DNA from: Haloquadratum walsbyi C23 | Lineage (GTDB): Archaea; Halobacteriota; Halobacteria; Halobacteriales; Haloferacaceae | Assembly (NCBI RefSeq): GCF_000237865.1 | Contig: NC_017457.1 | Coordinates: 30,001-62,000, forward strand | DNA length: 32,000 nt | Direction: 5' to 3' | Shown: one piece after another, positions 5,139 to 32,000 of the stretch | Layout of the letters: each line of letters begins with the position of its first letter | How positions within the stretch are numbered: the first letter of the stretch is position 1 | The notes under the pieces: model-generated | What the model was told of the DNA's origin: nothing | The model's input: the letters and a program-made list of their open reading frames with translations, nothing else | Database searches by the model: none | Translations under genes and position numbers: made by a program

Positions 5139-5696
5139 ATGAGCTATTGTTCAGGCTGTGGAACAGAGCTTAGTGGAGAAGAAACATTCTGCCCAGACTG
5201 TGGGGAGTCGATTGATAAAAATAATACTGTAGAGACTAATCTAAGTGAATCAGCAGACACCAATCCAGCAAAAATAGCTGATACGTCTGAGAGTGAGGAT
5301 GACGGAGTTCAATGGAAACAGGTTGGAATGGCTGGAAGTCTTGCATTAATCCCTGCGTTCATTGCATACTTAGCGCTTTCAATTGCAACTGGAGGAGATC
5401 CTGTTGGTATCGTGTTCTTAATTTCACTCCCTGTATTTGGATATCTCCTTTACCAGCGATCGACATTCATTACAATGATTGGCGGGATGTGTTACTATCT
5501 CTCGATTGAGTTTCTCCTCAGCCCATTCTTTCTACTACTCTATACTGTCGCATTCGCAAGTGATAGCACTACCACTGCAGCTGGACAAGCGGGAGCTGCT
5601 ATTGGTGGGTTTGCACTAACGATTGCTGCATTCGTTGTTGGATTGCCACTAGCAATTGCATTTTATCTTGTTTCACGGCGATTAGATCAGACATAG
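5139..5696 (+). CDS. zinc-ribbon membrane protein (about 4 TM)
   Basis: N-terminal CxxC-N11-CxxC (CSGCGTELSGEETFCPDCG), then an acidic linker and four hydrophobic helices. Confidence 0.8.
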   Translation: MSYCSGCGTELSGEETFCPDCGESIDKNNTVETNLSESADTNPAKIADTSESEDDGVQWKQVGMAGSLALIPAFIAYLALSIATGGDPVGIVFLISLPVFGYLLYQRSTFITMIGGMCYYLSIEFLLSPFFLLLYTVAFASDSTTTAAGQAGAAIGGFALTIAAFVVGLPLAIAFYLVSRRLDQT

Positions 5697-5725
5697 TATG
5701 AGTAAATCCATTAAATATAAATAGT

Positions 5726-6610
5726 ATGAGTTTTTGCACGAACTGCGGAACAGAACTCAGTGGAGGGGAGTCGTTCTGTCCAAATTGTGGAGAGTCTGTT
5801 CACTTAGATACTGATAGGGATGGTCTGCGAAACTCAACCGACGATAATCCAGCAGATGCTGGTGCTAAATCAACCAACGTAATTAAAAATAGTAGTATAG
5901 CAGAGGATCAGAAAGATAAGATAAGAGACATAAATCTCACTTTAGGTAAATCAATTGCATATCCTGTCGGATCATTATTAACTTTTTTAGGAGTTATCTC
6001 GTTATTTTCGGACATTGGCGCAGGTATACTAATCCTATTTGCAGGCATCATCGCACTTCCAATCATGCGGTCAAGAATCAAAGATAGAGTGGGTATAGAA
6101 ATAAATAGATGGGTTGCGTCAGCTATCGTAATCATATCAGTAGGGGCAGGAGTAGCAGTTTTACCATCGGAGACTGGCGGAGATAGCAGATCAGCTGTGC
6201 AAAATAATGAGAGTGAAATAAAAACAATTGAGCAACCGGCGAGCGAATTGACACCAACCATTGATAGCTTCGAAAGCGGATGGCGTGTTGTTGAGAGGCA
6301 GGGTGGAACTGCTGATTTTGTTTCCCCAGAGGCAAGCGAACGAGTGGTATACCAAGTCATGGTGTATAGGAACGTCAGCGAAGCACAATCGGCAGTGGTA
6401 TCTGAAGAGCCCGATAATATAGCCACAGATAACCCAGATTTTGGCGATGGAGGTTTCAAATATCAAATTGCTGATAGGGAATATAAGATAGTATTCTATA
6501 AAAAAAATGTCGTATGTAGCACAACATACGGAGCTGATGTCATGACATTCAACGCTGAGTCGAACGCAGACAAATTCGCCAAGATTTGCTTAGACTCAAT
6601 TGAAAGCTGA
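5726..6610 (+). CDS. zinc-ribbon membrane protein paralogue (about 3 TM plus C-terminal soluble domain)
   Basis: The N-terminus MSFCTNCGTELSGGESFCPNCGES is nearly identical to that of the upstream gene. It is followed by three hydrophobic helices and a 140-aa acidic C-terminal domain. Confidence 0.8.
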   Translation: MSFCTNCGTELSGGESFCPNCGESVHLDTDRDGLRNSTDDNPADAGAKSTNVIKNSSIAEDQKDKIRDINLTLGKSIAYPVGSLLTFLGVISLFSDIGAGILILFAGIIALPIMRSRIKDRVGIEINRWVASAIVIISVGAGVAVLPSETGGDSRSAVQNNESEIKTIEQPASELTPTIDSFESGWRVVERQGGTADFVSPEASERVVYQVMVYRNVSEAQSAVVSEEPDNIATDNPDFGDGGFKYQIADREYKIVFYKKNVVCSTTYGADVMTFNAESNADKFAKICLDSIES

Positions 6611-10677: not shown

Positions 10678-11745
10678 ATGATATTAAGTATAGAAAAAAG
10701 TGGAAAACTAGATGATAGTCTTGAGACGACAAAGCTCTCTGATCTGAATTTTACTGAACCGGAGAATCTTCAGGAGTGGATAATTGAGAGACCAGCTATC
10801 TTAGGTGAGGAACTACTTGTAATCACATCAGAGTATGCTGGATTCCAAGATACACTTGATAGGTTAGATATCCTCGCTATTGATACAGATGGAAAATTAG
10901 TTGTCGTTGAACTCAAACGGGACCGTGCTGATCAAACAACCGACCTCCAAGCAATCAAATACGCAAGCTACTGCGCCACTTTAACTGCAAAAGAAGTGCA
11001 GAAAGAATATCGCTCGTTTTGGACTGGACGAGATGGTGCAGAGATTGCGTCTGAGATCGAAACCGAAGATGTCAGTCAACAGTTCGCAGATTTCTTAACT
11101 GAGTTCGAGGGAGACCCGCCTATTACCGATGAAGGGTGGGTCGACTTTGAGCTTAGTGAGAGACCACGTATCATACTCGCCGCTGGGAGCTTTAGCACTG
11201 AAATTACGTCTCCAGTATTATGGTTGACCAACGAATATGGAATGGACGTTACTTGTATAAAAATCGAGGCTTATGAGCATCAGGAGCATGTGATTCTAAA
11301 CTCTCAACAGATTATTCCTATTCCTGAAGCTGAGGAGTATATGACCAGACGTCGTGAAAAGCGGGAGAAACAGCGAGAGTCCTCATCAGTCCGGACAATT
11401 GAACTACTTCTTAGAGAAAATGTGCTCTCTAAAGGTGATGAGGTCTACTTTAATTCTGACAAGGCACCGTCTGACCCCGACCCCGAGTGGTCTAGTTCCG
11501 ATGAATTTTGGCGAGCAGAAATTACTGGGGAACGAGGTCAAAGTAACAATGTGAAGTGGCGTGGGAAAGAATACTCATTCACCGGACTCACGAAGGAAGT
11601 GTTGTACCAATCAAATGACCGAGACAAAACTAACTCACTCAACGGCTACAAGTACTGGAAGTCTCCCGATTCTGATAACCGAACGCTAAGACAGCTCCGT
11701 GATCGTGAGGTAGGTGGTTCGGATCTAGGCGATCAAGATGAATAA
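10678..11745 (+). CDS. NucS/DUF91-like PD-(D/E)xK nuclease with C-terminal RAMA-like domain
   Basis: RLDILAIDTDGKLVVVELKRDRADQTTDLQAIKY matches the D...ExK...Q..Y core of NucS-type nucleases. The C-terminus FWRAEITGERGQSNNVKWRGKEYSFTGLTKEV...LNGYKYWK...LRQLRD resembles the RAMA domain found in restriction and methylase-associated proteins. Confidence 0.8.
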   Translation: MILSIEKSGKLDDSLETTKLSDLNFTEPENLQEWIIERPAILGEELLVITSEYAGFQDTLDRLDILAIDTDGKLVVVELKRDRADQTTDLQAIKYASYCATLTAKEVQKEYRSFWTGRDGAEIASEIETEDVSQQFADFLTEFEGDPPITDEGWVDFELSERPRIILAAGSFSTEITSPVLWLTNEYGMDVTCIKIEAYEHQEHVILNSQQIIPIPEAEEYMTRRREKREKQRESSSVRTIELLLRENVLSKGDEVYFNSDKAPSDPDPEWSSSDEFWRAEITGERGQSNNVKWRGKEYSFTGLTKEVLYQSNDRDKTNSLNGYKYWKSPDSDNRTLRQLRDREVGGSDLGDQDE

Positions 11746-11897: not shown

Positions 11898-12356
11898 ATG
11901 TTAATGACCACATTAGCACTTATGCAGCCATTCACCCTCACACGGGTACTATGCCGAACCGATCTCATGCGTGGTCAAATCACACTACTGAAAATATTAT
12001 ATGAACGGGATGAACCATTCAACCGAACAGAACTGGCGGCGAAACTTCGAGGGGAAATACATCAGAATCCGGAACGAAGTCTCACAGGGGTTCTAGGAGC
12101 CTTTGGCAAGCGCATTAACGAGACTGAAGAAGTACCGGGGAATCCTGGTATCAGCGCTTTCATTAAACGTGAACGAATCGACGGTGAAACGCATTACATA
12201 TTGCGATCAGAAGCACAGAAAGCTGTTGAAAACGTTCCTGTCCTGATGGAGAGATTCGATGAACCATGGCAGAGTCTGCTTGAGTCGGGTACCCGAATCG
12301 AGGCTGTGGACCTCGTTCCGAGGGTTGACGAGCAGAGTATACTATCAGATTCTTAA
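11898..12356 (+). CDS. hypothetical protein, possible wHTH; likely true start at ATG 11967
   Basis: ITLLKILYERDEPFNRTELAAKL...SLTGVLGAFGKRINETE. Paralogous to the next ORF. Confidence 0.6.
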   Translation: MLMTTLALMQPFTLTRVLCRTDLMRGQITLLKILYERDEPFNRTELAAKLRGEIHQNPERSLTGVLGAFGKRINETEEVPGNPGISAFIKRERIDGETHYILRSEAQKAVENVPVLMERFDEPWQSLLESGTRIEAVDLVPRVDEQSILSDS

Positions 12357-12522
12357 ATTTCGGTTATCTGCTGCGTCAGCTTCGATAGATTCGTACTTCT
12401 TGATATTAATCTGAGTTGTTACATTGCATAATGTGACTACATATCAACATCATAAAATTCTGCATTCAACACGAGGCAAAGTGCCATTATACTTTTATTA
12501 AAAGATGAAAAATTAGAATAAC

Positions 12523-12861
12523 ATGACGCAAATAGATAATCAAGGAACTCTCAGTGAAACATTTTTTCAGGATTTGACACAACGGCAGGAGGCTTTGTTT
12601 GGTGTGCTAGCAGATTCCGGTGAATGGGTCCTTGGACCAGAACTTCGTAAGCGAATGAGAGATAGACACAATGTTCCGATGGATGAGAGTGGACAAGCTC
12701 TTGCTGGAGTTATCTCTGGTATCACTCAAAAATACAGTGAGAGTGAGAGAGACGCCCTGCTACAGAGAAGATGGGCAGAAACAGATGTTGAATTTCGTAT
12801 CGGAGAGTATCGAATTCAGGAGGCACACAGAGATCAGATCCGTGACCGTCTCAGTAAGTAG
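12523..12861 (+). CDS. hypothetical protein, paralogue of 11898-12356
   Basis: LTQRQEALFGVLADSGEWVLGPELRKRM...ALAGVISGITQKYSESE follows the same pattern as the upstream ORF. Confidence 0.6.
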   Translation: MTQIDNQGTLSETFFQDLTQRQEALFGVLADSGEWVLGPELRKRMRDRHNVPMDESGQALAGVISGITQKYSESERDALLQRRWAETDVEFRIGEYRIQEAHRDQIRDRLSK

Positions 12862-13622
12862 AGTAGCATTGACTGTGGATTTGAGTATTTACCAGAACAC
12901 ACGCTCAAAGAAACCGTCGATCAAGATATGGTCAAATTTAGATCGTTATTCCATTCGGGCAGATACTTTTCACCGATAACATGACTTCAGAGAAGTAGCC
13001 CGTCAGGAGTTTAATTTAGACTTCGCAGCTAGAGGTTGGGACTCTTATATAAATATATTCTCACAATCCTATCTAACTATTATATAAGGCTAATTGAGAG
13101 ACATCAGTGAGTTGAATAGAGGAGTAGTAATTGTTGAACAGTTATATCGGCTCAAGGACGCATAGATTGCAGATATATTCTCGATGCTGATACTATACGT
13201 GCAGGAGCAATATTGCTACTCACATTAATCTAGAACCGTTCTTGATTCAATATGCTTTCTGCTGGTTCCCAAGACACACTGGACATGATACTGATAGGCA
13301 TGAACTATGAGATAGTTTCTATCAACTAAGACTCCATCTTTCGTGAGAATAACCCATCTATGTACTACGCCGTGAGGTGCGTCTGGTTTCGATTAGCAGT
13401 ATGTGCTGAGAAATAAAGAACAAATAAAAATTACCGTGTGTATCCAAACAAATCTATACCTGACAACTTTCTCAATGTTTCCTGACAGTGATACCATCCC
13501 CATAATGACAGTATTAATTCTACCTGCTAGATTATCTGCGATTACAGCCACAGTGTGCTTGTCAATGTATCCTGCTGGGTCGATAGGAGACTTTACTGGA
13601 GCAATTCATGCTCACGTCAATA

Positions 13623-21106: not shown

Positions 21107-21703
21107 GTGGCGATAGCCCCCCAAATTGTACTTCAATCTAGAGATAGCAGACATCATATGGGAGACGGAACAGCCGGGTCTTCAGTTCAGTATCAGACCC
21201 CGACACATGAGTATCTACGTCAGCGATTACAACAGATGGCTCCGGAGGCGTTCGAGGAGTTTGTAAGCGATGTGTGGGAGTTTCTTGGCTGGAATACACG
21301 TGTTGTTGGGAAACCAGGGGATCGTGGTATTGATGTCGTCGCTGTGACCGGTGATCAAAAGCAACTGATTCAAGCTAAGCGGTATGGACCATCGACATCG
21401 GTCGGGAGCCCTGAAGTCCAACAGTATGCAAGCCTCCGACTGCAAGAAGAGAATGTCGATCAAGTAACAATCGTGACAACGGGAACGTTCTCCTGGCAAG
21501 CACGTGAACTCGCACCTGAACTCGAAGTATTGTTAGTGAACGGTGAAGAGTTGATCGAGATGATTGACGAAATTGAGGCGTTCGAAGTCTTTGACGATCA
21601 CTTTGCGGATATCGAGCTATCACGTAATGTCGACGTAGATGCTACTGAATCTCCAAGCCGGTTCCGACGACTGCTTCGATGGGTTCGCTCACTATTTTCC
21701 TGA
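21107..21703 (+). CDS. Mrr-like restriction endonuclease domain protein (likely start at ATG 21158 or later)
   Basis: FEEFVSDVWEFLGWNTRVVGKPGDRGIDVVAVTGDQKQLIQAKRYGPSTSVGSPEVQQ matches the Mrr_cat core (D...D-x-QxK). The track start at 21107 is a GTG. Confidence 0.85.
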   Translation: MAIAPQIVLQSRDSRHHMGDGTAGSSVQYQTPTHEYLRQRLQQMAPEAFEEFVSDVWEFLGWNTRVVGKPGDRGIDVVAVTGDQKQLIQAKRYGPSTSVGSPEVQQYASLRLQEENVDQVTIVTTGTFSWQARELAPELEVLLVNGEELIEMIDEIEAFEVFDDHFADIELSRNVDVDATESPSRFRRLLRWVRSLFS

Positions 21704-22362: not shown

Positions 22363-22939
22363 ATGTGATCATTATACCTATCCAACATATGCTTCTCGCT
22401 TGATAATTGAATTGTTTGTAATGTAGAAGTGAGCTACCCCGACCTACTTAGCTGTCGCAGACGGCTTTCTTGTAAAAGGAGTCCTGCCCTTGTTCCGAAT
22501 AGTACGGGAACGACTGGCAGATATCATTCTAAGTTTCCCTGTCGAAGTCCTCAGAGTGGAATTATACAGATGAAATCCCCTGAAGCCAATGGCTAAATGA
22601 GGCTCAGGACCGATCATTGATTCACAGTTGCAACTAACGTCGAAGACGACTGAGATTCTTTTTATTCTAGTGATAGTATCGGCATATGTTTTGAATAACG
22701 TCTAAATGTACGACTTACAGTCCAAAAGCCTCACAAGTTATCCACTATCTATTAGACTGGAATTACTGTAGCTAAGACTCTATTTACATATCCTAACTTT
22801 GATTAAATATAGAGCAGGTTAGCATGGAGTGAGGTAGAGAGGGTTGAGCAGTCCGATAGACTCTCAATTTGCTTAGAGCAGATAGCTGAGTCCTTTGTAT
22901 CTACGTAGGTTATTTTACTTTCAATTACGCAATGGATAT

Positions 22940-25066
22940 ATGGAAATTAGCAAACTTCTTGATCGAGTAGAGTCGAATGCTATTGTTCTGCCAGAGTTCC
23001 AGCGTGAGTTCGTTTGGAAGAACTCACAGGCAAAGGAGTTGATGAACTCACTTTTCGAAGAGTTCCCTATCGGGAGTTTGCTTACGTGGGAAACAGAGAA
23101 TCCTCCTGAAATTAAAAACGAAGCAATAGACGAAGAAAAACATGCACTTTTTGAGGTCCTACTTGATGGGCAACAACGACTGACAGTATTGTATATGTTG
23201 ATTAAAGACGAAATCCCACCGTACTATACCGAGGACGATACCGAGAATGACCCACGGGATCTTTATCTCAACGTCGGCGATGGAAAGTTCCATTTTGAAA
23301 ACAAGATGACTCGTGAAGGCGTTGAGTGGGTTAGGGTAACTGACTGTTTCAATGGTGAGGTTGATGGGGTGACTATTGCTCAGAAAAAATTAGGTGATAA
23401 GCCAGAGCCTGTGTTGGAACTTTCAAAAGAGTATAACCAACAGATCGCTCAACTCCAAAATGTCACGACTCGTAGTATCCCAGTCGAGACCCTCCCGAAG
23501 TCAGCGGATATTCATGAGGCAATCGAACTCTTTGATAAAATCAACTCACAAGGAACACACTTGAGTGATGCAGAGTTGGCATTAGCGCATATGAGTGCTG
23601 AATGGGCGTATATCCGCCGGAATATGAAACAAAAGCAGGCTGAGTTAGCTACCCAAGGATTTGAGTTCAATCTCAATTTCTATGTGAAATGCATGATTGG
23701 AACTCTCACCGAAACAATGACCTACGAACAGGTATACAACGTGTCAGAGGATGAACTCAAATCTCAGTGGTACGAATTAGCTGGTAAGGATAATAAGGAT
23801 GGTATCTTTGATTACGTGATCAACGTTCTCCAAAATGACGGACAGATTCCGTCATCAGACTACATCAACACTCGTGACGTTCTCATTCCGTTTATCGTAT
23901 ATCTGAATAAACAGGAGAAGCAACTATCTCACGACGAGAAAACGCAGTTCCTGCGGTGGCTCTACTCAGGGATGATGTGGTCACGGTACAGTGGCTCATC
24001 AGATACGACCGTGGAACACGACATTTCACTCTTGGATGGGGAGTCTCCGACTGACCAACTCATGCAGGAAATTCGTGATGAGAGAGGACGGATAGAGGTG
24101 CAGGCATCTGACTTGCAGGGACGTGGGAAACGAACACGTCGGTTCTATAATATGGTACGGACCGTAATTCGTGCGAATGATCCTGTGGACTGGAAAACAG
24201 GTGAGCCACTCAAAGGGAGTTACGAACTGGAATCCCACCACATCTTCCCAAAGAGCAAACTCTATGAAGAGTATGACTCAGGTAACTCTACACACCGGAA
24301 GCTGGTCAACGAAATTGCTAATCGTGCTTTCCTCACTCCAGCCACAAACAAACAACTGGGAGACGAACTACCAGAGAGTTATTTACCAAAAATAATCGAA
24401 GACCATCCGAGTGCATTGGATTCCCAATTCATTCCAGATAATGGAGAGCTTTGGAAGTTACAAAATTACGAAGACTTCCTCGCCAAGCGGCGGGAATTAT
24501 TAGCTGATGCTATCAATGACTATATGGAAAACTTAGTAGTCGGAGAAGAAGGAAACGAAGAACAAGAGTCAGCAGACGAACTTATCCACAAAGGTGAGAA
24601 TACTCGGATTGAGTTCAAGGAGTCTTTCCTGTACGATGTATATCGAGAGCAGGCAAATAAAGATCTAAAAAAGGAGGTAGCAAAGGAAATCTGTGCGTTG
24701 ACCAATTCCGAAGGTGGAGCTGTAGTAATCGGGGTCAAAGATGATACGAAGGAGATCAAAGGTCTCGACCGAGACTACAATTTGATGGAAAAAGGTAAGG
24801 ATTCATTTGGACTCCAATTACGACAAGAAGTATCAAACAGACTAGGACAAATGATGGCTACCGCATATACTCATGTGAGGTTTGAAGAAGTTGATGAAAA
24901 AGAAGTCTGTGTCATCTGGGTTGATGATAGTCCTAAACCTGTTTTCTTTGAAGAGGATGATAGTGAGCAGTTCTATGTTCGAACCGGCACATCAGCTCAG
25001 CCTCTGAGCATTCAAGAAGCCAATAAATACATCGACGAACACTGGAATCAAAGCCCGATAGCATAG
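22940..25066 (+). CDS. GmrSD-family type IV restriction-like protein (DUF262 + DUF1524) fused to a C-terminal AlbA_2/Schlafen-like domain
   Basis: The N-terminus has LPEFQREFVW and LLDGQQRLTVLYML (DUF262/ParB-like NTPase). The centre has ESHHIFPKS...NEIANRAFLTPATNKQL (DUF1524 His-Me/HNH-like). The C-terminus has GENTRIEFKESF...EICALTNSEGGAVVIGVKDD.KEIKGL (AlbA_2). I take ATG 22940 as the start; ttatttta lies 23-30 nt upstream, and the track start at 22895 is a TTG. Confidence 0.9.
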   Translation: MEISKLLDRVESNAIVLPEFQREFVWKNSQAKELMNSLFEEFPIGSLLTWETENPPEIKNEAIDEEKHALFEVLLDGQQRLTVLYMLIKDEIPPYYTEDDTENDPRDLYLNVGDGKFHFENKMTREGVEWVRVTDCFNGEVDGVTIAQKKLGDKPEPVLELSKEYNQQIAQLQNVTTRSIPVETLPKSADIHEAIELFDKINSQGTHLSDAELALAHMSAEWAYIRRNMKQKQAELATQGFEFNLNFYVKCMIGTLTETMTYEQVYNVSEDELKSQWYELAGKDNKDGIFDYVINVLQNDGQIPSSDYINTRDVLIPFIVYLNKQEKQLSHDEKTQFLRWLYSGMMWSRYSGSSDTTVEHDISLLDGESPTDQLMQEIRDERGRIEVQASDLQGRGKRTRRFYNMVRTVIRANDPVDWKTGEPLKGSYELESHHIFPKSKLYEEYDSGNSTHRKLVNEIANRAFLTPATNKQLGDELPESYLPKIIEDHPSALDSQFIPDNGELWKLQNYEDFLAKRRELLADAINDYMENLVVGEEGNEEQESADELIHKGENTRIEFKESFLYDVYREQANKDLKKEVAKEICALTNSEGGAVVIGVKDDTKEIKGLDRDYNLMEKGKDSFGLQLRQEVSNRLGQMMATAYTHVRFEEVDEKEVCVIWVDDSPKPVFFEEDDSEQFYVRTGTSAQPLSIQEANKYIDEHWNQSPIA

Positions 25067-25542: not shown

Positions 25543-26343
25543 TTAAACGACTCCGGGCGTCACAGCGGTTTCTTCGTTTGCCGTCACAACACCCGTGACG
25601 TCATCAGCGAGTCCATCATCGAACACAACCGCTGTTTTCCCGCCACGAGTTTCTTTAATATCCACTCCACCGTCACCAAACTGTTTCAGAAAGTCAGCGA
25701 CTCGTTGAACTGTCTGTCTGTGAACTCGTTTGTCTTCTTGTGCAGTCAAAACATCTCGAATCCGAGTCGACGTGATAGCAATCCCAGCTGGCACGGATTT
25801 TCCATAGTCTTTGATTCGACGAGCAATTGATCGAGCTCTCTTTTGATTGGAAGTGAGATTCTCTACTGCAACGTTTTCTGGAAGTGCACACACTTGCTCA
25901 AGGGAAGTGGTCTTACTGCCACTCGGAGTGGTCGTATCCTCATCGTTGTCCTCAGATTGGGACGATTGCTTTTCAGAGGAATCAGCTGTGTCTGTTTCAA
26001 CTTTCTCCTCTACTTCGGTGAGTCTCTTCCTCGCTTTTGCATCATGCTCAATATGCTCTGCGAGGTTATCTTCAAGTTGCGTAATCTTTTTCCGATCCTC
26101 AGCGTTGGACTTCGCCTGCATGGCAACTTGCTCTCGAATCTCATCAATCTCCGCTTGCTTGTTAGTAAGTGATTGTTCAATCCCCTCGACAGCTGATTCG
26201 CCAATCTGTCTAACTGTATCAACTGTTTCTTGATCAGTATCAGTCGCCTCTAGACAATCTGCTGTTTTTTGGACAAATAGTGTCAATTGCTCAATACAAC
26301 CGATGTCGGTGCTGTTAAGACAGCGCAGTTCTTGTTTATTCAT
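25543..26343 (-). CDS. hypothetical coiled-coil protein with C-terminal wHTH-like domain
   Basis: 266 aa. Long acidic helical centre (EIDEIREQVAMQAKSNAEDRKKITQLEDNLAEHIEHDAKARKRLTEVEEK). The C-terminus ITSTRIRDVLTAQEDKRVHRQTVQRVADFLKQFG...GGKTAVVF is HTH-like. Confidence 0.7.
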   Translation of the reverse strand: MNKQELRCLNSTDIGCIEQLTLFVQKTADCLEATDTDQETVDTVRQIGESAVEGIEQSLTNKQAEIDEIREQVAMQAKSNAEDRKKITQLEDNLAEHIEHDAKARKRLTEVEEKVETDTADSSEKQSSQSEDNDEDTTTPSGSKTTSLEQVCALPENVAVENLTSNQKRARSIARRIKDYGKSVPAGIAITSTRIRDVLTAQEDKRVHRQTVQRVADFLKQFGDGGVDIKETRGGKTAVVFDDGLADDVTGVVTANEETAVTPGVV

Positions 26344-26665: not shown

Positions 26666-26953
26666 CTATTCTTCTGACGGTTCACTGTCCTCGACTAGCT
26701 CATTTCGAAGATCGTCGATTTCCTTTTGACGTTGTTTAAGCATCGCTTCACAATCATCACTTAATTGCCGACCATATTGTTCGAGATCATCGATAATCTC
26801 TTGATCAATTTCAGTGTCGGTTGACTCAGCAGCCTCCACGAATGCATCAACGAATTCGTCGATCGAATCTACTGCGTTCGCATCAGCAGAAGAATTACCC
26901 CCTGGATTATCAGTTTCAGACATGCTTTCTTTGGAATAGTCTATCAGTCTCAT
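26666..26953 (-). CDS. small acidic hypothetical protein (95 aa; alternative start 26923)
   Basis: D/E-rich helical sequence on the same strand as its neighbours. Confidence 0.55.
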   Translation of the reverse strand: MRLIDYSKESMSETDNPGGNSSADANAVDSIDEFVDAFVEAAESTDTEIDQEIIDDLEQYGRQLSDDCEAMLKQRQKEIDDLRNELVEDSEPSEE

Positions 26954-27114: not shown

Positions 27115-27585
27115 TCACCCGTGCATGTCGGCGATTTCAGCAGCCTCTGCCAAACTACATTGCACTCCACAGTATGACCTCTTCTCGTCTGGCAGAATTT
27201 CCGGAGAGATCGTGATTTCAGCGACATATCCGTCAAGTAAGATCCATGCATGGCGAGTCAATATTTTCTGCCCATTTTCAATATACTGAATGTACCCTTC
27301 GCAATATTGAACATCAGCGTCAATTTGATCCTCCATTTGCATCGCCTGCCGACAGTTTTGGAAGCATCGCTTAGGAACCGCCCCAGCATACTCTGCAAGT
27401 GTTTTGGCATCATCGTGCAAGACCGTTCCCTGTTTGACCATCTCATCAGATTTGAATTCTCGCCCGTTCTGTGCGACAAATTTGATGAAGTGTTCTTGAT
27501 CATCAGGGATGCTCTTGGCACGTAACTTGACATTAGAAATAATGGATTCTATGTCAGTGCTTTTTGAAACGAATATATTGGACAT
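27115..27585 (-). CDS. hypothetical protein with possible Cys-His (transglutaminase/papain-like) signature
   Basis: KRCFQNCRQAM...CEGYIQY...TRHAWILLDGYVAEIT resembles the G-x-C...G-Y...H-A-W-x-E...D core order of transglutaminase-like cysteine peptidases. Tentative. Confidence 0.65.
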   Translation of the reverse strand: MSNIFVSKSTDIESIISNVKLRAKSIPDDQEHFIKFVAQNGREFKSDEMVKQGTVLHDDAKTLAEYAGAVPKRCFQNCRQAMQMEDQIDADVQYCEGYIQYIENGQKILTRHAWILLDGYVAEITISPEILPDEKRSYCGVQCSLAEAAEIADMHG

Positions 27586-28168
27586 ATTTATATTTTATTT
27601 AGAATCTCCCATCTGAATAGTAAAGATGTGCTTTGTTTCATCTAGAATTTGTTATTTAGATGTATTAATTGTTTTCTCAGATAATTGTAATTATACATGT
27701 TATGATATAGATTTGAATCATCAGTTAATTTACTCCACTTCCAGTATGTAAACGAATTTGATATATTCTCACCATGTGTTAACCTGCAATGAAGAGAGAG
27801 AAGGGGTCTATAATCCTACTTACACAATTTCATATATGTCCTTCACCAGGCTCATAGGTTGACCAATTTCTTGAAACAATATTTTATGGGATTAACTTCT
27901 AGAATTACAGTAATATCACTTATCATCGTGCCATCCAGGCAACGAGAGAACCGTGACTGACATTATCAGTTATTCTACTAGAAGAGCACATATATATGAT
28001 ATGAAATGTTGGACATACTCAAATTAGTAGTTATGATAGTCATTATTGTTAGTTATCATATTTTATTATTTAACATTAAGATCCATATTTATGCGGATAG
28101 ACTCAATAAAGATGTTTCGACGGGTGACGAATACCCCAATTGTAAATTATGAGAACATCATAGCAAAA

Positions 28169-29251
28169 TTACGTTGGTAGTTCTGCATTCACTGGACCGA
28201 TATCTTCCCTGTAACGGAAGTATCCAGCTTCAGATAGCTCGTTTGCTAAGTGATGGCGATGACAAAAATGATCCTGATCTCCCTGTGGTTTTGGGAATTT
28301 TTCGATGCACATCAGTGCTGGCTTCCCAGACTCTTCGAGAAACTCACCGAACTGCTCAAATTTGTCGTCCTGATGTATACTCCACATATACCAATTTTCA
28401 AAACAATCGTGTCCAATGGCTTGCTGTTTATATGGTTCAACGATAACTCGTGGAACACCAAAGTCGGGCTTATGAATATACTCAATACCATCTATGTTTG
28501 AGAACTGATTTTCTAGTACATCTACGTTGAACTCTGGCTTGTACATTGATTCGCCGGAGGCACGGACATCGACCAAAATGTCTATTTCATTCTCCCGGAG
28601 TTCGTCAACTAACTCAGTGAATTCTTTTCCGCTGTACCCCACTGTGGCAATGGTATCATTCTTAAATCGCTCCAAACGATCACGAGCTTCGTCACGACTC
28701 CACCCGTTCTCAATGAGTCGGGTGGTAAACTCCTCCTGATCTTCTTCAGGGAGCTGAGCGATGACTAACCCTTTTCTTGCCGCTAAGTCCCCGCTCTTTA
28801 CACGTCTGTACACCGAATCAGCTAAATCCATCACCAGCGTGATTTTATCCTGAACTGTCCGTGGCGCCAACCCAGTTATATCACCAATTTCCTCTTCAGA
28901 GAGATCGTAGTCGGTGTAAAGTTCCTTGCAGAGTTCTCCGATCTCTTCATCTTTCATCTCTTTCTGCATTTTGTTCGTTTTCACAGCAAGACCACGAGCG
29001 CTTTCATCTCCGAGGTCTTTGATGGTAGCCTCAATCTCTGACCAGTTCAGACGCCGTGCAGCCTCAAGTCGATGACTTCCTGATATAACCTCATACTCAA
29101 CATCTTTTTGTCCCGACGCAGGGCGAGCGATGATAGGGTTCCATTGACCATCCTCGGCAAATGACTCTCTTATATCCTCCACATGGTCATCATCAATTTC
29201 CTCTCGAATCTGGAAGTCTGGCAAATCTATTTTGCTAAGAGCTACTTTCAT
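28169..29251 (-). CDS. ParB/Srx-like N-terminal domain plus HTH, fused to a DUF488 domain
   Basis: I take ATG 29251 (MKVALSKIDLP...) as the start. EYEVISGSHRLEAARRLNW is the ParB-type GxxR box and EEIGDITGLAPRTVQDK is an HTH. The C-terminus TIATVGYSGKEF...DILVDVRASGES.YKPEF...IEYIH.PDFGVP...ALMCIEKFP......CHRHHLA is the DUF488 pattern. Confidence 0.85.
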   Translation of the reverse strand: MKVALSKIDLPDFQIREEIDDDHVEDIRESFAEDGQWNPIIARPASGQKDVEYEVISGSHRLEAARRLNWSEIEATIKDLGDESARGLAVKTNKMQKEMKDEEIGELCKELYTDYDLSEEEIGDITGLAPRTVQDKITLVMDLADSVYRRVKSGDLAARKGLVIAQLPEEDQEEFTTRLIENGWSRDEARDRLERFKNDTIATVGYSGKEFTELVDELRENEIDILVDVRASGESMYKPEFNVDVLENQFSNIDGIEYIHKPDFGVPRVIVEPYKQQAIGHDCFENWYMWSIHQDDKFEQFGEFLEESGKPALMCIEKFPKPQGDQDHFCHRHHLANELSEAGYFRYREDIGPVNAELPT

Positions 29252-29552
29252 AACTACTTTTATACAGGATACGAAGTAAAACACTTTCTTAATAATTATA
29301 CAGTTGATACGATATGCATAGTGTGAGACATAGCTAGGCATATGCAGACGTTGATGACGTCTACTCCATGGCTCTGAAGTACTAGATGTACAGATCTTGT
29401 TCTGTCCTGATGCCTGTTTTATTATTCATTGATATATATTTATTATCTTCTGGGCTATCTATGGATAAGTATCTAAAAATCAATTAACTCAGAGTTCGGG
29501 CAGCTCTGAAATTAAGATCATATTGAGTCTTTCTCAAAATCTGGAGGCATAA

Positions 29553-30359
29553 TCAGTTCCGTTCGGCAGGATGTACAAATTCTGTACTAACCTTTGGATA
29601 CTCACTCCATAATGGGTCGTATATTGGAATGTTATCTTTCATCCATATAATATTAATAGAAATAAACGATGTTCGCTGATTATTCTGGTTCCCGACAAGA
29701 ATCCAGTGATTATAATTATTGCTATCAAATTGATAAAAACTTTCCAGCTTAGCAGCAGAACTAATATTATATTTTTCAATGGCACGATATCCGCCCCACT
29801 CTAACAAGGTTTTATTATGATATCCTTGTTGAGTTTGGCAGCTAGAACAAGTAAACTGAATCCGGATTTCTCTATCAAACTCTTCTCTTGTTTCGGGACG
29901 CCATCTTTCCATTTCCTCGAACAGCTTCGCTTGGGTCAACCCGTCACTATCATCTTCCCATTCTTTCAGCTCCAGCCCACTAATTGATTTGGGTCGTATG
30001 ATTCCAAGACTTCGACCTCTTTGTTTGATTGACTCAACGCATTCATCCTCAAGTTGGGTGAGAAGTGTAGCCCGCTTCTCACGTTGATATTCTCCCGTCT
30101 TTTTAACACAGGAAGATTGGTTTCTACGTCCCAACTTCCAACTTTCATCACGGTTATCTTTCGGGTTTCGCTTTGCCTCAACTTCAACGATGTCCCATCT
30201 TTTGAACAATTTTTTCCTAGGTTTACACGGGTAAAGTCGAATAAAGCCACGGTGTTTTGACCACGCACCAGTACAGGTAGTGAGATCTCCACCACTGATC
30301 TCTTCTGGAGCAGCTCTACCTAAAATAACGACATCTTCTAACGTTTGCGAGGGGGTCAC
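29553..30359 (-). CDS. orphan hypothetical protein (268 aa, GTG start)
   Basis: The only long frame here, and less acidic than its neighbours. It has an RWDIVEVEAK segment (a possible D...ExK), a CSSC pair and a WxLVGNQ C-terminal block. I recognise no family. Confidence 0.65.
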   Translation of the reverse strand: MTPSQTLEDVVILGRAAPEEISGGDLTTCTGAWSKHRGFIRLYPCKPRKKLFKRWDIVEVEAKRNPKDNRDESWKLGRRNQSSCVKKTGEYQREKRATLLTQLEDECVESIKQRGRSLGIIRPKSISGLELKEWEDDSDGLTQAKLFEEMERWRPETREEFDREIRIQFTCSSCQTQQGYHNKTLLEWGGYRAIEKYNISSAAKLESFYQFDSNNYNHWILVGNQNNQRTSFISINIIWMKDNIPIYDPLWSEYPKVSTEFVHPAERN

Positions 30360-30547
30360 AGGTCCACCTCATATTCACCGAGACTCACTAATGAGCTGGT
30401 GATACAAGCCATGTCAATACATAACTATGTCAATCCATATAAATTTACGTCCACAAATAACTCAATTAATACAAACGACTAATATGATTATGTTTAACTT
30501 ATAATAGGCAACACAAGTTAGATAGAGACATTGAATACGATTCCGCC

Positions 30548-30787
30548 TTATTCCTCTCCTGCTTCTTGTGCTTCGATAGTCAATTCGCCCCGTTCAGTTA
30601 GTGAATAGACCTTCCGACGCCCCTCTTGTTTTCCTTTAATATACCCAGCGTCCTCCAGCTGTTGCATATGCTCATATATCGTAGGGCCTTGCTTCCCGAG
30701 TTCATCTGCTAGCGCATAGCCGTGTCGTGGCTCTTCACGGAGCTTTTCGAGAATCTGGCGTTTTGCGTCTGTCAGCGTAAGTCCCAT
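30548..30787 (-). CDS. PadR-like winged-helix transcriptional regulator
   Basis: RHGYALADELGKQGPTIYEHMQQLEDAGYIKGKQEGRRKVYSLTERGE matches the PadR hallmark (hGY...Y..L..Le..G.i....grrk.Y.lT..G). Divergent from the methyltransferase operon. Confidence 0.85.
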   Translation of the reverse strand: MGLTLTDAKRQILEKLREEPRHGYALADELGKQGPTIYEHMQQLEDAGYIKGKQEGRRKVYSLTERGELTIEAQEAGEE

Positions 30788-30870
30788 TCAATCTTTGATT
30801 AGGATAGATAGGTAATAAGATATACATATGCAAACACCTATGCATAGATGAAATACTATTTATAATCGCA

Positions 30871-31608
30871 ATGGTGGAACAGACAAGTAACTCTATGTCC
30901 AAAAAGACTAGTAATCAAATGTATATCGTTGATCTCAGGGAAGCAGTTTCCAGTAATCAGACGCTTAGGGAGGCACTCACTGAGTCAAATAGCCTCTGGA
31001 AGCCTCTCTATAACCGCATGGGTTCTTCAGAAACTCTTTGGATCATCGTTTCAAATGAATATCGAGGCGGGAAAATGTGGCCTGCTGCGATGGCTGCAGC
31101 TGATTACATTAGAAATCAAGCGAGTTTTATTTTGAAAAATACTATTACCGTCCATAATATTTCTGATGATAATAATGTTGCGGATATGATTTCTGCGTAC
31201 AATGAAATTCTCTTTTTTGTTAAAGACAAACGTAATTATCAGTTTCACAAAGATGAAATTCGTGTCTCACATGTGTATGAAGGAAATGAGTGGGGAGGTG
31301 AGAGAGAGAAAGGAACTAGCGCATACCATGATACTGAAGTCCGTCGGTACAACCCAGACGGGAAGGATCCTGGTAATGTGTGGCTTGAGGAAGACCGATC
31401 ACAAACCCCAAATCAAGAACTTGACGAAACCAGACCGATTCCATTTGATGAAAGTATCCGCCGATGCATTCGGGTTGGGTCGCAGGAAAAAGAAAAAATC
31501 CACACCATTTGGGCCACTAATCTAGCAGATATCATAACGTGCGAAAATCGGGAATTCATTGAAGTTGATGTCGATGTCCTCCAATCTGAGTCCGAGAGAA
31601 AATCATGA
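30871..31608 (+). CDS. catalytically degenerate paralogue of a beta-class N4/N6 DNA methyltransferase (start may be ATG 30895)
   Basis: It retains MTase framework blocks: LWIIV..., FILKNTITVHN, YNEILFFVKDKRNYQFHKDEIRVSH, YNPDGKDPGNVWLEE and RPIPFDESIRRCIRVGS. No (D/S)PPY motif is present, and the DPFxGSGTT AdoMet site is replaced by HTIWATNLAD. Its stop overlaps the ATG of the next gene (ATGA at 31605-31608). Confidence 0.75.
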   Translation: MVEQTSNSMSKKTSNQMYIVDLREAVSSNQTLREALTESNSLWKPLYNRMGSSETLWIIVSNEYRGGKMWPAAMAAADYIRNQASFILKNTITVHNISDDNNVADMISAYNEILFFVKDKRNYQFHKDEIRVSHVYEGNEWGGEREKGTSAYHDTEVRRYNPDGKDPGNVWLEEDRSQTPNQELDETRPIPFDESIRRCIRVGSQEKEKIHTIWATNLADIITCENREFIEVDVDVLQSESERKS

Positions 31609-32000
31609 ATACTGTCAATTCCATTGATGCACTGAGTGTCTATTGGCAATCAAGCGAGGACATGAGTATCGTTGAGCCTGAGAGTGTTCAAACCGTCATC
31701 ACCTCTCCACCATACTGGGATCTCAAGGATTACGGGCATGAAGACCAGATTGGGACTACTGATGAATCGTATGAACACTATCATGACCGCATGAAAACTG
31801 TCTGGAAGGAGTGCTATGATGTTCTTAGAGAAGATGGGACAATGTGGATTGTTGTGGACACAGTCATGGAACGAGGTGATCTCCAGTTGCTTCCATATCA
31901 TATCATTCAGAAGGCAGAAGAAGTCGGGTTTGTGTCTCAGGATTTAGTCACTTGGTACAAGCCAACTGCTATCGCAGGGATGACAGATCGAAATATTGTG
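31605..32000 (+). CDS. DNA methyltransferase, N6_N4 (beta-class) family, SPPY motif; 5' partial, runs off the window
   Basis: Hand translation gives MNTVNSIDALSVYWQSSEDMSIVEPESVQTVITSPPYWDLKDYG...REDGTMWIVVDTV...LVTWYKPTAIAGMTDRNIV, with no stop before 32000. It is absent from the ORF track because it is open-ended. Confidence 0.85.
   Translation, partial: MNTVNSIDALSVYWQSSEDMSIVEPESVQTVITSPPYWDLKDYGHEDQIGTTDESYEHYHDRMKTVWKECYDVLREDGTMWIVVDTVMERGDLQLLPYHIIQKAEEVGFVSQDLVTWYKPTAIAGMTDRNIV

What the first reader, a model, noticed from the sequence alone, without database searches (positions are those of the whole stretch)
28169..29251. ParB/Srx N-terminal domain fused to DUF488
A single polypeptide combines three parts: a ParB-type NTP-binding/nuclease-like domain (GSHRLEAARRL box), a ParB-like HTH, and a complete DUF488 domain (VDVRxxxxS...CxE...CHR). 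DUF488 has no firmly established function that I know of. Fusion to a DNA-clamping or nicking ParB module, beside methyltransferases, points to a DNA-directed role for DUF488. I do not recall this architecture being characterised.
Basis: partly seen in the sequence, partly recalled or inferred. Interest (0 to 1): 0.65.

Follow-up and report, generated by a model that had tools for sequence, protein, structure and literature searches.

The report
ParB-DUF488 fusion with obligate partner gene
The ParB–DUF488 fusion gene is real, but it belongs to an archaea-wide, already catalogued family that always sits next to a second uncharacterised gene; the pair looks like a DNA-processing defence-type module carried on mobile elements, and nobody has measured what it does.

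Summary
Window 28169-29251(-) encodes a 360-aa protein with ParB_N (residues 3-90), HTH_ParB (108-196) and DUF488 (213-337), all above Pfam cut-offs. The window is from Haloquadratum walsbyi.

The novelty claim does not hold. The same three-domain protein occurs in more than 120 protein clusters and across many archaeal phyla, including Sulfolobus conjugative plasmids. One archaeal member was purified and shown to bind CTP (Kaljevic et al., PNAS 2025).

The fusion lies next to a ~265-aa uncharacterised gene (window 29553-30359(-)) in 21 of 24 distinct loci. DUF488 proteins without ParB keep the same partner (5 of 5). PADLOC labels the pair as the untested phage-defence candidate PDC-M19 (A = DUF488, B = partner). 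Some partner homologues carry C-terminal HNH or GIY-YIG-type nuclease domains. A ParA-like gene is nearby in only 1 of 24 loci.

In the close haloarchaeal clade the pair travels with a PadR regulator, an inactive-looking and an active N6/N4 methyltransferase, and mobile-element genes.

Best reading (confidence 0.5): a CTP-gated ParB-type DNA loader brings a DUF488 enzyme to DNA and works with the partner as a mobile-element-borne conflict module. The biochemistry is unknown. It is a new member of a known, uncharacterised kind.

The parts
28169..29251 (-). ParB_N-HTH_ParB-DUF488 fusion protein, 360 aa (component A, the ParB-headed form of PDC-M19A)
   Evidence: Pfam and NCBIfam hits. PADLOC PDC-M19A E 7e-20 on residues 193-347. 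More than 120 homologous clusters share the architecture. AF2 model has mean pLDDT 88.7.
28982..29245 (-). ParB N-terminal (CTPase-fold) domain, residues 3-90. Contains FQIR, GQWNP (Box I loop) and GSHR (Box II, GxxR).
   Evidence: A family profile matches Noc/Spo0J/ParB structures at E 2e-37. The CTP-binding relative GA93 has GLWNP at residues 35-39 and, at 55-61, a Box II printed in six letters as GHRLRA.
28664..28930 (-). ParB-type helix-turn-helix DNA-binding domain, residues 108-196
   Evidence: Pfam HTH_ParB. Foldseek matches to ParB/Noc DNA-binding domains 6s6h and 6y93.
28241..28615 (-). DUF488 domain, residues 213-337, with all family-conserved polar residues retained
   Evidence: Pfam DUF488. 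Conserved columns. Domain-only AF2 model has pLDDT 92.2. No PDB neighbour at E<1e-3, only weak matches to PTP-fold phosphatases.
29553..30359 (-). Obligate partner gene, 268 aa, uncharacterised (component B, PDC-M19B-like)
   Evidence: PADLOC PDC-M19B E 8e-13. Adjacent to the fusion in 21 of 24 distinct loci and to 5 of 5 short DUF488 genes. phrog_25907 E 2e-30. 100% identical to a Haloquadratum walsbyi hypothetical protein.
30548..30787 (-). PadR-type winged-helix regulator, part of the clade-specific module
   Evidence: Pfam PadR E 2e-11. Orthologues lie beside the methyltransferases in L001 and L008.
30871..31608 (+). MT1: N6_N4_Mtase-like protein lacking the (D/S)PPY and FxGxG motifs, so probably non-catalytic
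   Evidence: Pfam 36.5 bits. Motif scan. Conserved next to MT2 in 7 of 7 close haloarchaeal loci and fused to it in L012.
31605..32000 (+). MT2: N6/N4 DNA methyltransferase with SPPY, truncated by the window end
   Evidence: Translation. The full-length copy in L035 is 260 aa with SPPY and FLGSGT.
30838..30847 (.). Palindrome CTATGCATAG in the PadR/MT1 divergent promoter region, a probable PadR operator
   Evidence: Same 10-mer at the equivalent place in L001 and L008, and absent from loci without PadR.
29313..29321 (.). 9-of-10 copy of the same palindrome, about 60 bp upstream of the ParB-DUF488 start
   Evidence: Weak evidence for co-regulation.

Best explanation
The gene is component A of a two-gene module that mobile genetic elements carry.

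Shown here:
- A is a ParB/Noc-type N-terminal CTPase-fold domain plus a ParB HTH, joined to a DUF488 domain that keeps all of its conserved polar residues.
- A is almost always encoded next to one particular ~265-aa protein, B.
- The same B accompanies DUF488 proteins that have no ParB head.
- Some B homologues carry HNH or GIY-YIG-type nuclease domains.
- The pair corresponds to PADLOC's untested defence candidate PDC-M19.

Shown by others: a family member binds CTP.

Inferred mechanism:
1. The ParB head acts as a CTP-gated switch. It loads on DNA through the HTH and either clamps, slides or changes conformation.
2. This places the DUF488 domain on DNA.
3. DUF488 is a Rossmann-like enzyme with a Cys/His/Arg/Lys/Ser pocket of the kind that binds phosphate or sugar-phosphate groups. 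It chemically processes a DNA end, a backbone group or a nucleotide-derived group.
4. B recognises or cuts the DNA substrate.

The net effect would be a conflict function for the element that carries it: defence, exclusion of rival elements or counter-defence. In the Haloquadratum-type clade the PadR regulator and the MT1/MT2 methyltransferase pair plausibly mark self DNA and control expression.
For: - Domain calls and conserved catalytic-looking residues.
- The ParB half lies close to canonical clamp-forming ParB/Noc/KorB, with a profile E of 2e-37 and Foldseek E of 1e-11.
- CTP binding was shown for family member GA93, whose Box I and Box II are near-identical to the window protein.
- The partner is adjacent in 21 of 24 distinct ParB-DUF488 loci, from Halobacteria to Asgard archaea and Sulfolobus plasmids, in three different orientations. 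It is also adjacent to 5 of 5 ParB-less DUF488 genes.
- Both genes hit PDC-M19A and PDC-M19B. A bacterial pair matches both models over their full length, at 3e-111 and 4e-114.
- PDC systems were derived from genes embedded in BREX, DISARM and type I RM loci.
- 6 of 74 partner homologues have a C-terminal HNH domain and 1 has a GIY-YIG-type domain.
- Mobile-element context: integrase and DUF1424 Rep in Halorhabdus, pleolipovirus spike and VP3 genes in Natrialba, conjugative plasmid pSOG1, and PHROG families for both genes.
- The window neighbourhood holds Mrr and GmrSD-Schlafen type IV restriction genes.
- Weak fold resemblance of DUF488 to Cys-phosphatases. This agrees with its published placement in the Rhodanese-phosphatase superfamily, which I cite from memory because the paper was not readable here.
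Against: - No activity of DUF488 or of the partner has been measured anywhere I could read.
- PDC-M19 is explicitly untested.
- The window locus is not embedded in BREX, DISARM or type I RM.
- The structural link of DUF488 to phosphatases is weak (TM 0.40-0.43, E about 1e-2).
- The partner has no recognisable domain, and its structure was not predicted.
- The Glu of the canonical GERR box, needed for CTP hydrolysis in studied ParBs (my own knowledge), is Ser/Ala/His in this family. The switch may therefore cycle differently.
- The canonical C-terminal dimerisation domain that closes a ParB clamp is missing.
- Location on mobile elements fits maintenance functions as well as conflict functions.
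Confidence: 0.5

Rival explanations
1. It is a true partition (centromere-binding) protein of an integrated plasmid or provirus, as the database name 'ParB/RepB/Spo0J family partition protein' says. DUF488 would replace the dimerisation domain.
For: TIGR00180 is hit above its cut-off. The N-terminal half is close to chromosomal ParB and Noc. The gene sits on plasmids and proviruses. The one locus without a partner, L027, has a Soj-like ParA 1.3 kb away.
Against: No ParA/Soj-like ATPase lies in the fetched flanks (up to 10 kb each side) of 23 of 24 loci. There is no N-terminal extension that could hold a ParA-activating peptide, because ParB_N starts at residue 3. The same partner gene accompanies DUF488 proteins that have no ParB domain at all. 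DUF488 keeps an enzyme-like set of invariant polar residues.
Confidence: 0.12
2. It is a KorB/Noc-like CTP-dependent DNA-sliding regulator that silences or times genes of the mobile element. DUF488 would serve as a ligand sensor or oligomerisation module rather than a DNA enzyme.
For: Foldseek matches KorB (8qa8, 8qa9) and Noc. The gene lies beside a PadR regulator, with a conserved palindrome in the module's promoters and a 9-of-10 copy upstream of this gene. ParB-fold proteins such as DndB act as repressors.
Against: The palindrome tracks the presence of PadR, not of ParB-DUF488. The obligate partner and its nuclease fusions are not explained. The DUF488 residues conserved are those of a catalytic pocket.
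Confidence: 0.13
3. It is a DNA-modification writer rather than a restriction-type effector. ParB-DUF488 and the partner would install or remove a chemical mark on the element's own DNA, alongside MT1/MT2, to evade host restriction such as the Mrr and GmrSD genes nearby.
For: There is tight linkage to an active plus an inactive N6/N4 methyltransferase pair in 7 of 7 close haloarchaeal loci. ParB-fold fusions to methyltransferases are common in phages. Type IV modification-dependent restriction genes are in the same window.
Against: The methyltransferase linkage is absent outside that clade. HNH and GIY-YIG-type fusions on the partner point to cleavage rather than marking.
Confidence: 0.18

Closest known systems
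ParB-CTPase-archDUF488 (protein GA93, from MAG GCA_016839905.1) in Kaljevic et al., PNAS 2025 (PMC12704722)
   Same: Same ParB-CTPase + HTH + DUF488 architecture in Archaea. Box I loop GLWNP at residues 35-39 against GQWNP at 35-39 here. The GxxR Box II sits at the same position.
   Different: Only nucleotide binding was tested there. Neither the partner gene nor the DUF488 activity was addressed in the text I could read.
PADLOC phage-defence candidate PDC-M19 (A + B)
   Same: The DUF488 half matches PDC-M19A (7e-20) and the neighbour matches PDC-M19B (8e-13), and the two genes are adjacent. A bacterial pair in L032 matches both models end to end.
   Different: PDC-M19A models have a different ~140-aa N-terminus that this protein does not match, because here it is replaced by ParB_N plus HTH. 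The window locus is not embedded in BREX, DISARM or type I RM, which is how PDC systems were found. PDC-M19 is untested.
Canonical ParB/Spo0J, Noc and KorB CTP-dependent DNA clamps
   Same: The N-terminal CTPase fold with FQxR, the Box I loop, GxxR and a retained Box III Asn. The adjoining HTH domain. The AF2 model superposes on ParB and Noc (TMt up to 0.77).
   Different: No C-terminal dimerisation domain, no ParA partner and no ParA-binding peptide. The GERR Glu is replaced, and Box III reads KTN instead of ENLQR. An enzyme-like DUF488 domain sits at the C-terminus.
pNOB8 AspA-ParB-ParA archaeal plasmid segregation system (PDB 5k5a, 5k5d)
   Same: An archaeal ParB-fold protein carried on a plasmid. 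The pNOB8-like ParB-N is a weak structural match to the full-length model (E 9e-5). A full-length homologue of the window protein is on the Sulfolobus conjugative plasmid pSOG1.
   Different: pNOB8 ParB-N did not match the DUF488-only model and barely matches by sequence (E 0.022). In 23 of 24 loci, including pSOG1, no ParA lies in the fetched flanks of the ParB-DUF488 gene.
RapZ-C-DUF488-DUF4326 clade of the Rhodanese-phosphatase superfamily (Burroughs & Aravind 2023, NAR Genom Bioinform lqad029). Cited from memory; not readable here.
   Same: The DUF488 domain. Weak Foldseek matches to PTP-fold phosphatases, a DUF442 phosphatase, a tetrapyrrole-methylase domain and DUF4326 fit that classification. 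Pfam PF22751 'Active DUF488-N3 subclade' hits the ParB-less relatives that share the same partner.
   Different: The window protein did not reach PF22751 at E<=1. It has a roughly 7-residue longer loop before CHR, with an invariant Gln. I could not check whether that paper describes the ParB fusion or the partner.

Membership tests
ParB/Spo0J/Noc-type CTP-switch DNA-binding proteins (PF02195 + PF17762, TIGR00180) | ParB N-terminal domain with GxxR (Box II) and the Box I loop | tested here: met
   PF02195 E 4.4e-12. GSHR at residues 58-61 with G58 and R61 invariant. GQWNP at 35-39.
ParB/Spo0J/Noc-type CTP-switch DNA-binding proteins (PF02195 + PF17762, TIGR00180) | ParB-type HTH DNA-binding domain following the N domain | tested here: met
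   PF17762 30.7 bits against cut-off 22.6. TIGR00180 78.8 bits against 58.45.
ParB/Spo0J/Noc-type CTP-switch DNA-binding proteins (PF02195 + PF17762, TIGR00180) | Catalytic Glu of GERR and the ENLQR Box III used for CTP hydrolysis in studied ParBs | tested here: not met
   The Glu position is Ser here and Ala or His across the family. Box III reads KTNKMQ, and only the Asn is retained.
ParB/Spo0J/Noc-type CTP-switch DNA-binding proteins (PF02195 + PF17762, TIGR00180) | C-terminal dimerisation domain that closes the clamp | tested here: not met
   The C-terminal 165 residues are DUF488, and no ParB C-terminal family is hit.
ParB/Spo0J/Noc-type CTP-switch DNA-binding proteins (PF02195 + PF17762, TIGR00180) | CTP binding | not testable with these tools
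   Shown by DRaCALA for the family member GA93, with an R-to-A pocket mutant as the negative control. Not measured for this protein.
ParABS partition systems | Adjacent ParA ATPase and an N-terminal ParA-activating peptide on ParB | tested here: not met
   A Soj query finds a ParA-like ORF in only 1 of 24 loci, L027. ParB_N begins at residue 3.
ParABS partition systems | Centromere-like parS repeats near the gene | tested here: inconclusive
   Only short repeats were found in 27500-31000. The one conserved palindrome tracks PadR.
DUF488 (PF04343) | Match to the family HMM above the gathering score | tested here: met
   46.8 bits against 22.2, profile positions 4-119 of 121.
DUF488 (PF04343) | Retention of the conserved TxG(H/Y), DxR, CxE and CHR residues (the 'active' form) | tested here: met
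   T203, G205, D228, R230, C315, E317, C330, H331 and R332 are invariant or nearly invariant.
DUF488-N3a subclade (PF22751) | Match to the subclade HMM | tested here: not met
   Not listed at E<=1 for the window protein. The ParB-less relatives L030, L031, L033 and L034 reach 37-45 bits against cut-off 27.
PADLOC PDC-M19 | Both component A and component B present and adjacent | tested here: met
   A at 7e-20 (DUF488 half only) and B at 8e-13. The two genes are 301 bp apart on the same strand.
PADLOC PDC-M19 | Full-length match to component A | tested here: not met
   Only profile positions 143-289 of 294 are matched, and the N-terminal ~140 positions are replaced by ParB_N plus HTH. Compare the full-length match in L032.
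PADLOC PDC-M19 | Anti-phage activity | not testable with these tools
   PDC systems are untested candidates according to their authors.
Rhodanese-phosphatase superfamily (Cys-phosphatase-like Rossmannoid fold) | Structural similarity of the DUF488 model to PTP or rhodanese folds | tested here: inconclusive
   SsoPTP 2i6i and 7mpc have probability 0.98 but TM only 0.40-0.43 and E about 1e-2. No hit reaches E<1e-3.

The most novel reading that the evidence does not exclude
ParB-DUF488 plus its partner is a new kind of CTP-gated immune or exclusion system of archaeal mobile elements. A ParB-type clamp loads on DNA and carries a DUF488 enzyme that performs a previously undescribed chemical step on DNA, such as processing or tagging of an end or of a backbone phosphate. 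The partner reads or cuts the product, and the MT1/MT2 methyltransferases protect self DNA.
Probability: 0.25. Interest if true: 0.75.

Novelty: new member of a known kind. Interest (0 to 1): 0.42.

Why it matters
DUF488 is a very widespread domain (it includes E. coli YeaO) with no measured activity. ParB-CTPase switches are only now being found outside chromosome segregation.

This family joins the two in one polypeptide, and it comes with a strictly linked partner and occasional nuclease fusions. That gives a concrete, testable two-protein system in which to find what DUF488 does and what a CTP switch controls when it is not segregating DNA.

For this window the practical outcome is more modest. 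The database name 'partition protein' is probably misleading. The gene should be read together with 29553-30359 as one module, within a low-GC stretch that also carries restriction and methyltransferase genes in Haloquadratum walsbyi.

Tried and rejected
- tblastn against the phage collection gave only partial ParB-only or DUF488-only matches and no full-length virus homologue. A pattern scan of IMG/VR found none.
- The exact 360-aa protein is not on record. Gene callers use the 390-aa start.
- Sequence and profile searches of the PDB found no DUF488 structure. Foldseek with the full-length model returned only ParB-type hits, so the second structure job went on the DUF488 domain alone. That search still gave no significant PDB neighbour. 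BFVD gave only other uncharacterised phage DUF488-like proteins.
- The partner gave nothing beyond insignificant ASCH, zinc-ribbon and DuOB hints in Pfam, NCBIfam, two PDB profile searches and hhalign against the ParB-DUF488 profile.
- A literature search for 'PDC-M19' and 'DUF488-N3' found nothing. Two eLife papers from the Aravind group do not mention DUF488.
- The key paper, Burroughs & Aravind 2023, is not held. What I say about it is from memory.
- The E. coli yeaO CRISPR-adaptation phenotype was not reproducible according to its authors and was set aside.
- I considered that pNOB8 ParB-N might contain a DUF488-like domain. I rejected this because it does not match the DUF488-only model.
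- No tRNA gene or integrase was found in the window to delimit an element.
Full report
**Observation.** The minus-strand ORF ending at 28169 can be read from 29341 (390 aa). Its homologues are 355-360 aa and start MK(I/V), and the closest (94% identity) is exactly 360 aa. Pfam places ParB_N at residues 3-90, HTH_ParB at 108-196 and DUF488 at 213-337, each above its gathering score. NCBIfam's ParB model TIGR00180 is also passed. The quoted motifs lie on invariant or nearly invariant columns of a 38-sequence alignment. The upstream neighbour is 100% identical to a Haloquadratum walsbyi protein, so the window is from that organism.

**The fusion is common, not unique.** A search of 5.8 billion proteins returned 133 relatives. 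Nearly all of the 120 listed clusters carry the same three domains; a few shorter entries lack one. Identity ranges from 94% down to 37%. A scan of one genome per species found full-length copies in these groups:
- Halobacteria
- Asgard archaea (Promethearchaeia and Heimdallarchaeota)
- Methanomassiliicoccales and Methanoregulaceae
- Thermoplasmatota
- Bathyarchaeia
- Desulfurococcales and Acidilobaceae

tblastn also found full-length copies (34% identity) on the Sulfolobus conjugative plasmid pSOG1 and on a Saccharolobus shibatae plasmid.

**What the literature already says.** Kaljevic et al. (PNAS 2025, PMC12704722) surveyed fusions of the ParB-CTPase fold and purified an archaeal 'DUF488-HTH' fusion. 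It bound CTP, and an R-to-A pocket mutant was the negative control. Their motif table gives that protein a Box I loop GLWNP at residues 35-39 and a Box II G-H-(x)-R-L-R-A at 55-61. The window protein has GQWNP at 35-39 and GSHRLEA at 58-64, so it belongs to the same family. Nucleotide binding is known, but the function is not.

**The partner gene.**
- In every well-flanked locus first examined, a ~260-290-aa protein with no Pfam domain lies next to the fusion. These proteins are homologous to window ORF 29553-30359(-), including the pSOG1 neighbour (E 3.6e-15).
- Using HMMs of both families on all fetched loci, the partner lies within 300 bp in 21 of 24 distinct ParB-DUF488 loci. The three exceptions are a 2.9-kb contig that ends 224 bp upstream (L011), one locus where the partner is about 2 kb away (L016), and L027.
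- The orientation varies between divergent, upstream co-directional and downstream co-directional. That argues for functional linkage rather than inherited gene order.
- Five shorter DUF488 proteins have no ParB domain (three Woesearchaeota, one unclassified archaeon and a bacterial MAG). Their DUF488 domain matches Pfam's 'Active DUF488-N3 subclade', four of the five above its cut-off. All five have the same partner immediately downstream.
- The conserved core is therefore DUF488 plus partner. The ParB-CTPase and HTH head is an archaeal addition.

**Link to a catalogued defence candidate.** PADLOC-DB labels the DUF488 half as PDC-M19A (7e-20) and the partner as PDC-M19B (8e-13). The bacterial pair in L032 matches both models end to end, at 3e-111 and 4e-114. 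The archaeal ParB-headed versions match A only over the DUF488 part and match B over its full length. PDC systems are 145 untested candidates. They were derived from genes embedded inside BREX, DISARM and type I restriction-modification loci.

**What the partner is.** It has no significant match in Pfam, NCBIfam or the PDB. The family is large, with 1100 representatives at E<=1e-3. Of 74 diverse members, six carry a C-terminal HNH domain and one carries a GIY-YIG-type domain (MUG113/T5orf172) after the conserved core. Nearly invariant polar residues (R41, D68, R70, E72, S73, S117, N224) suggest it has an active or binding site of its own. Recurrent nuclease fusions indicate that the system acts on nucleic acid.

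**What DUF488 looks like.**
- The full-length AF2 model is confident (pLDDT 88.7). The domain-only model is better still (pLDDT 92.2, pTM 0.87).
- The fold is a five-stranded alpha/beta sandwich.
- Inference: the invariant residues should cluster at the C-terminal strand ends and at the start of the last long helix. These residues are TxGY, DxR, S232/S235/K238, CxE, Q326 and CHR.
- No solved structure matches at E<1e-3. The best hits are Cys-dependent PTP-fold phosphatases (SsoPTP, PRL-2), a DUF442 phosphatase and a tetrapyrrole-methylase domain, with TM about 0.4. Among viral models the hits are uncharacterised phage DUF488-like proteins.
- This agrees with, but does not prove, the published placement of DUF488 in a RapZ-C-DUF488-DUF4326 clade of the Rhodanese-phosphatase superfamily. 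As I recall it, that paper predicts DNA-end processing roles in virus-host conflict systems (Burroughs & Aravind 2023). I could not open the paper, so this rests on my memory of its abstract and on the Pfam entry name seen.

**The ParB half.**
- A family profile matches Noc, Spo0J and ParB structures at E 1e-31 to 2e-37 over residues 2-190. The model superposes on ParB, Noc and KorB. It therefore belongs to the clamp-forming lineage and not to the divergent nuclease-type ParB/Srx proteins.
- It differs from that lineage in several ways. There is no C-terminal dimerisation domain and no room for a ParA-activating peptide. The Glu of GERR is Ser, Ala or His, and Box III reads KTN.
- From what is known of ParB (my own knowledge), those substitutions would slow CTP hydrolysis.

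**Context.**
- A Soj query finds a ParA-like gene in only one of the 24 loci. That locus, L027, is also the one with no partner.
- Mobile-element genes surround the family: integrase and DUF1424 Rep in Halorhabdus, DUF1424 in another haloarchaeon, pleolipovirus spike and VP3 genes in Natrialba, and the conjugative plasmid pSOG1. Both genes also hit (pro)virus families in PHROGs.
- In the close haloarchaeal clade (>=69% identity), all seven loci carry two tandem N6_N4_Mtase genes. Three of the seven, including the window, also have a PadR regulator. MT1 lacks the (D/S)PPY and FxGxG motifs. MT2 has SPPY and FLGSGT. The two are fused in one genome.
- In the window, MT2 starts at 31605 and is cut by the window end.
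- The window also holds Mrr and GmrSD-Schlafen type IV restriction genes, a NucS-like gene and an Orc1/Cdc6 gene, in DNA of 33-46% G+C.

**Interpretation.** The best-supported reading is a two-gene, mobile-element-borne nucleic-acid-processing conflict module. A CTP-gated ParB head would deliver or switch a DUF488 enzyme on DNA, and the partner would supply substrate recognition or cleavage. I give this 0.5. The linkage, the nuclease fusions and the defence-locus origin of PDC-M19 are solid. No activity has been measured, however, and a maintenance or regulatory role for the element is not excluded.

The rivals are a true partition protein (0.12), a KorB-like regulator (0.13) and a DNA-modification writer working with MT1/MT2 (0.18). 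The first two fail to explain the ParB-less DUF488-partner pairs.

**Novelty and score.** The gene is another member of a family that is already in databases. One member has been biochemically sampled, and the core pair is listed as a defence candidate. The architecture is not new.

What remains open, and interesting, is the chemistry of DUF488 and the role of a CTP switch in it. The strict partner linkage gives a clean experimental handle on both. I found no description of that linkage in anything I could read. Interest is 0.42.

Noticed in passing
window 30871-31608 (+) and 31605-32000 (+); L012 4672-6207: The two tandem N6_N4_Mtase genes are unequal. MT1 lacks both the (D/S)PPY and FxGxG motifs. 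MT2 has SPPY, and FLGSGT in full-length copies. They are conserved as a pair in seven haloarchaeal loci and fused into one 512-aa ORF in Halomicrococcus. This suggests an inactive-plus-active heterodimeric methyltransferase.
   Followed up: partly
window 30838-30847 and 29313-29321; L001 6467 and 8059; L008 4542: The palindrome CTATGCATAG is conserved in the PadR/MT1 divergent promoter region of three loci whose proteins are only 60-80% identical. It is absent from loci without PadR. A 9-of-10 copy lies upstream of the ParB-DUF488 start in the window. It is a likely PadR operator.
   Followed up: partly
window 22895-25066 (+): A 723-aa protein combines GmrSD_N (DUF262, itself a ParB-like NTPase fold), GmrSD_C and a C-terminal Schlafen AlbA_2 domain. 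It matches PADLOC HEC-05 at 3e-43. It is a type IV restriction-like enzyme with an extra sensor domain.
   Followed up: no
window 21107-21703 (+): A stand-alone Mrr_cat restriction endonuclease domain protein of 198 aa (PADLOC mREase_IV and PDC-S02 hits) lies 1.2 kb upstream of the GmrSD gene.
   Followed up: no
window 25543-26343 (-) and 26666-26953 (-): Two very acidic ORFs downstream of ParB-DUF488 on the same strand resemble each other (32% identity over 66 aa, E 9e-7), with weak DUF7260, JetC and PDC hints. They and the 156-aa ORF at 27115-27585 have no counterpart in the other loci, so they are probably not part of the module.
   Followed up: partly
L008 7979-11077 (metagenome contig Ga0401358_0000551): Two paralogous ParB-HTH-DUF488 genes flank a single partner gene. 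The second copy has lost several conserved residues, for example GQCEP in place of GQWNP and a shortened loop after VDVR.
   Followed up: no
L027 9923-13263 (Promethearchaeota MAG): This is the only ParB-DUF488 locus with no partner in the fetched flanks (10 kb upstream, about 3.5 kb downstream, where the contig ends), and the only one with a Soj/ParA-like ATPase (12346-13263, minus strand, E 4e-30). It may be a case of the fusion working in a partition-like setting.
   Followed up: no
L025 4221-5788 and L019 5355-6386: Extra ParB_N(+HTH/KorB) genes without DUF488 lie a few kb from the ParB-DUF488 gene. In L025 one is next to a weak partner-like ORF (E 1.5e-8).
   Followed up: no
L035 285-1196; L001 8117-8995; L008 6277-7155: A conserved 292-303-aa protein without Pfam domains follows MT2 in the haloarchaeal module. 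In the Haloquadratum locus it would lie just beyond the window end.
   Followed up: no
window 988-2334 (-), 5139-6610 (+), 10678-11745 (+): An Orc1/Cdc6 gene, two tandem zinc-ribbon proteins and a 355-aa protein with a NucS_C-like nuclease domain lie in the same low-GC stretch. No tRNA or integrase was found to delimit an element, and long stretches (about 13-21 kb, G+C 33-40%) have few ORFs of 100 aa or more.
   Followed up: no
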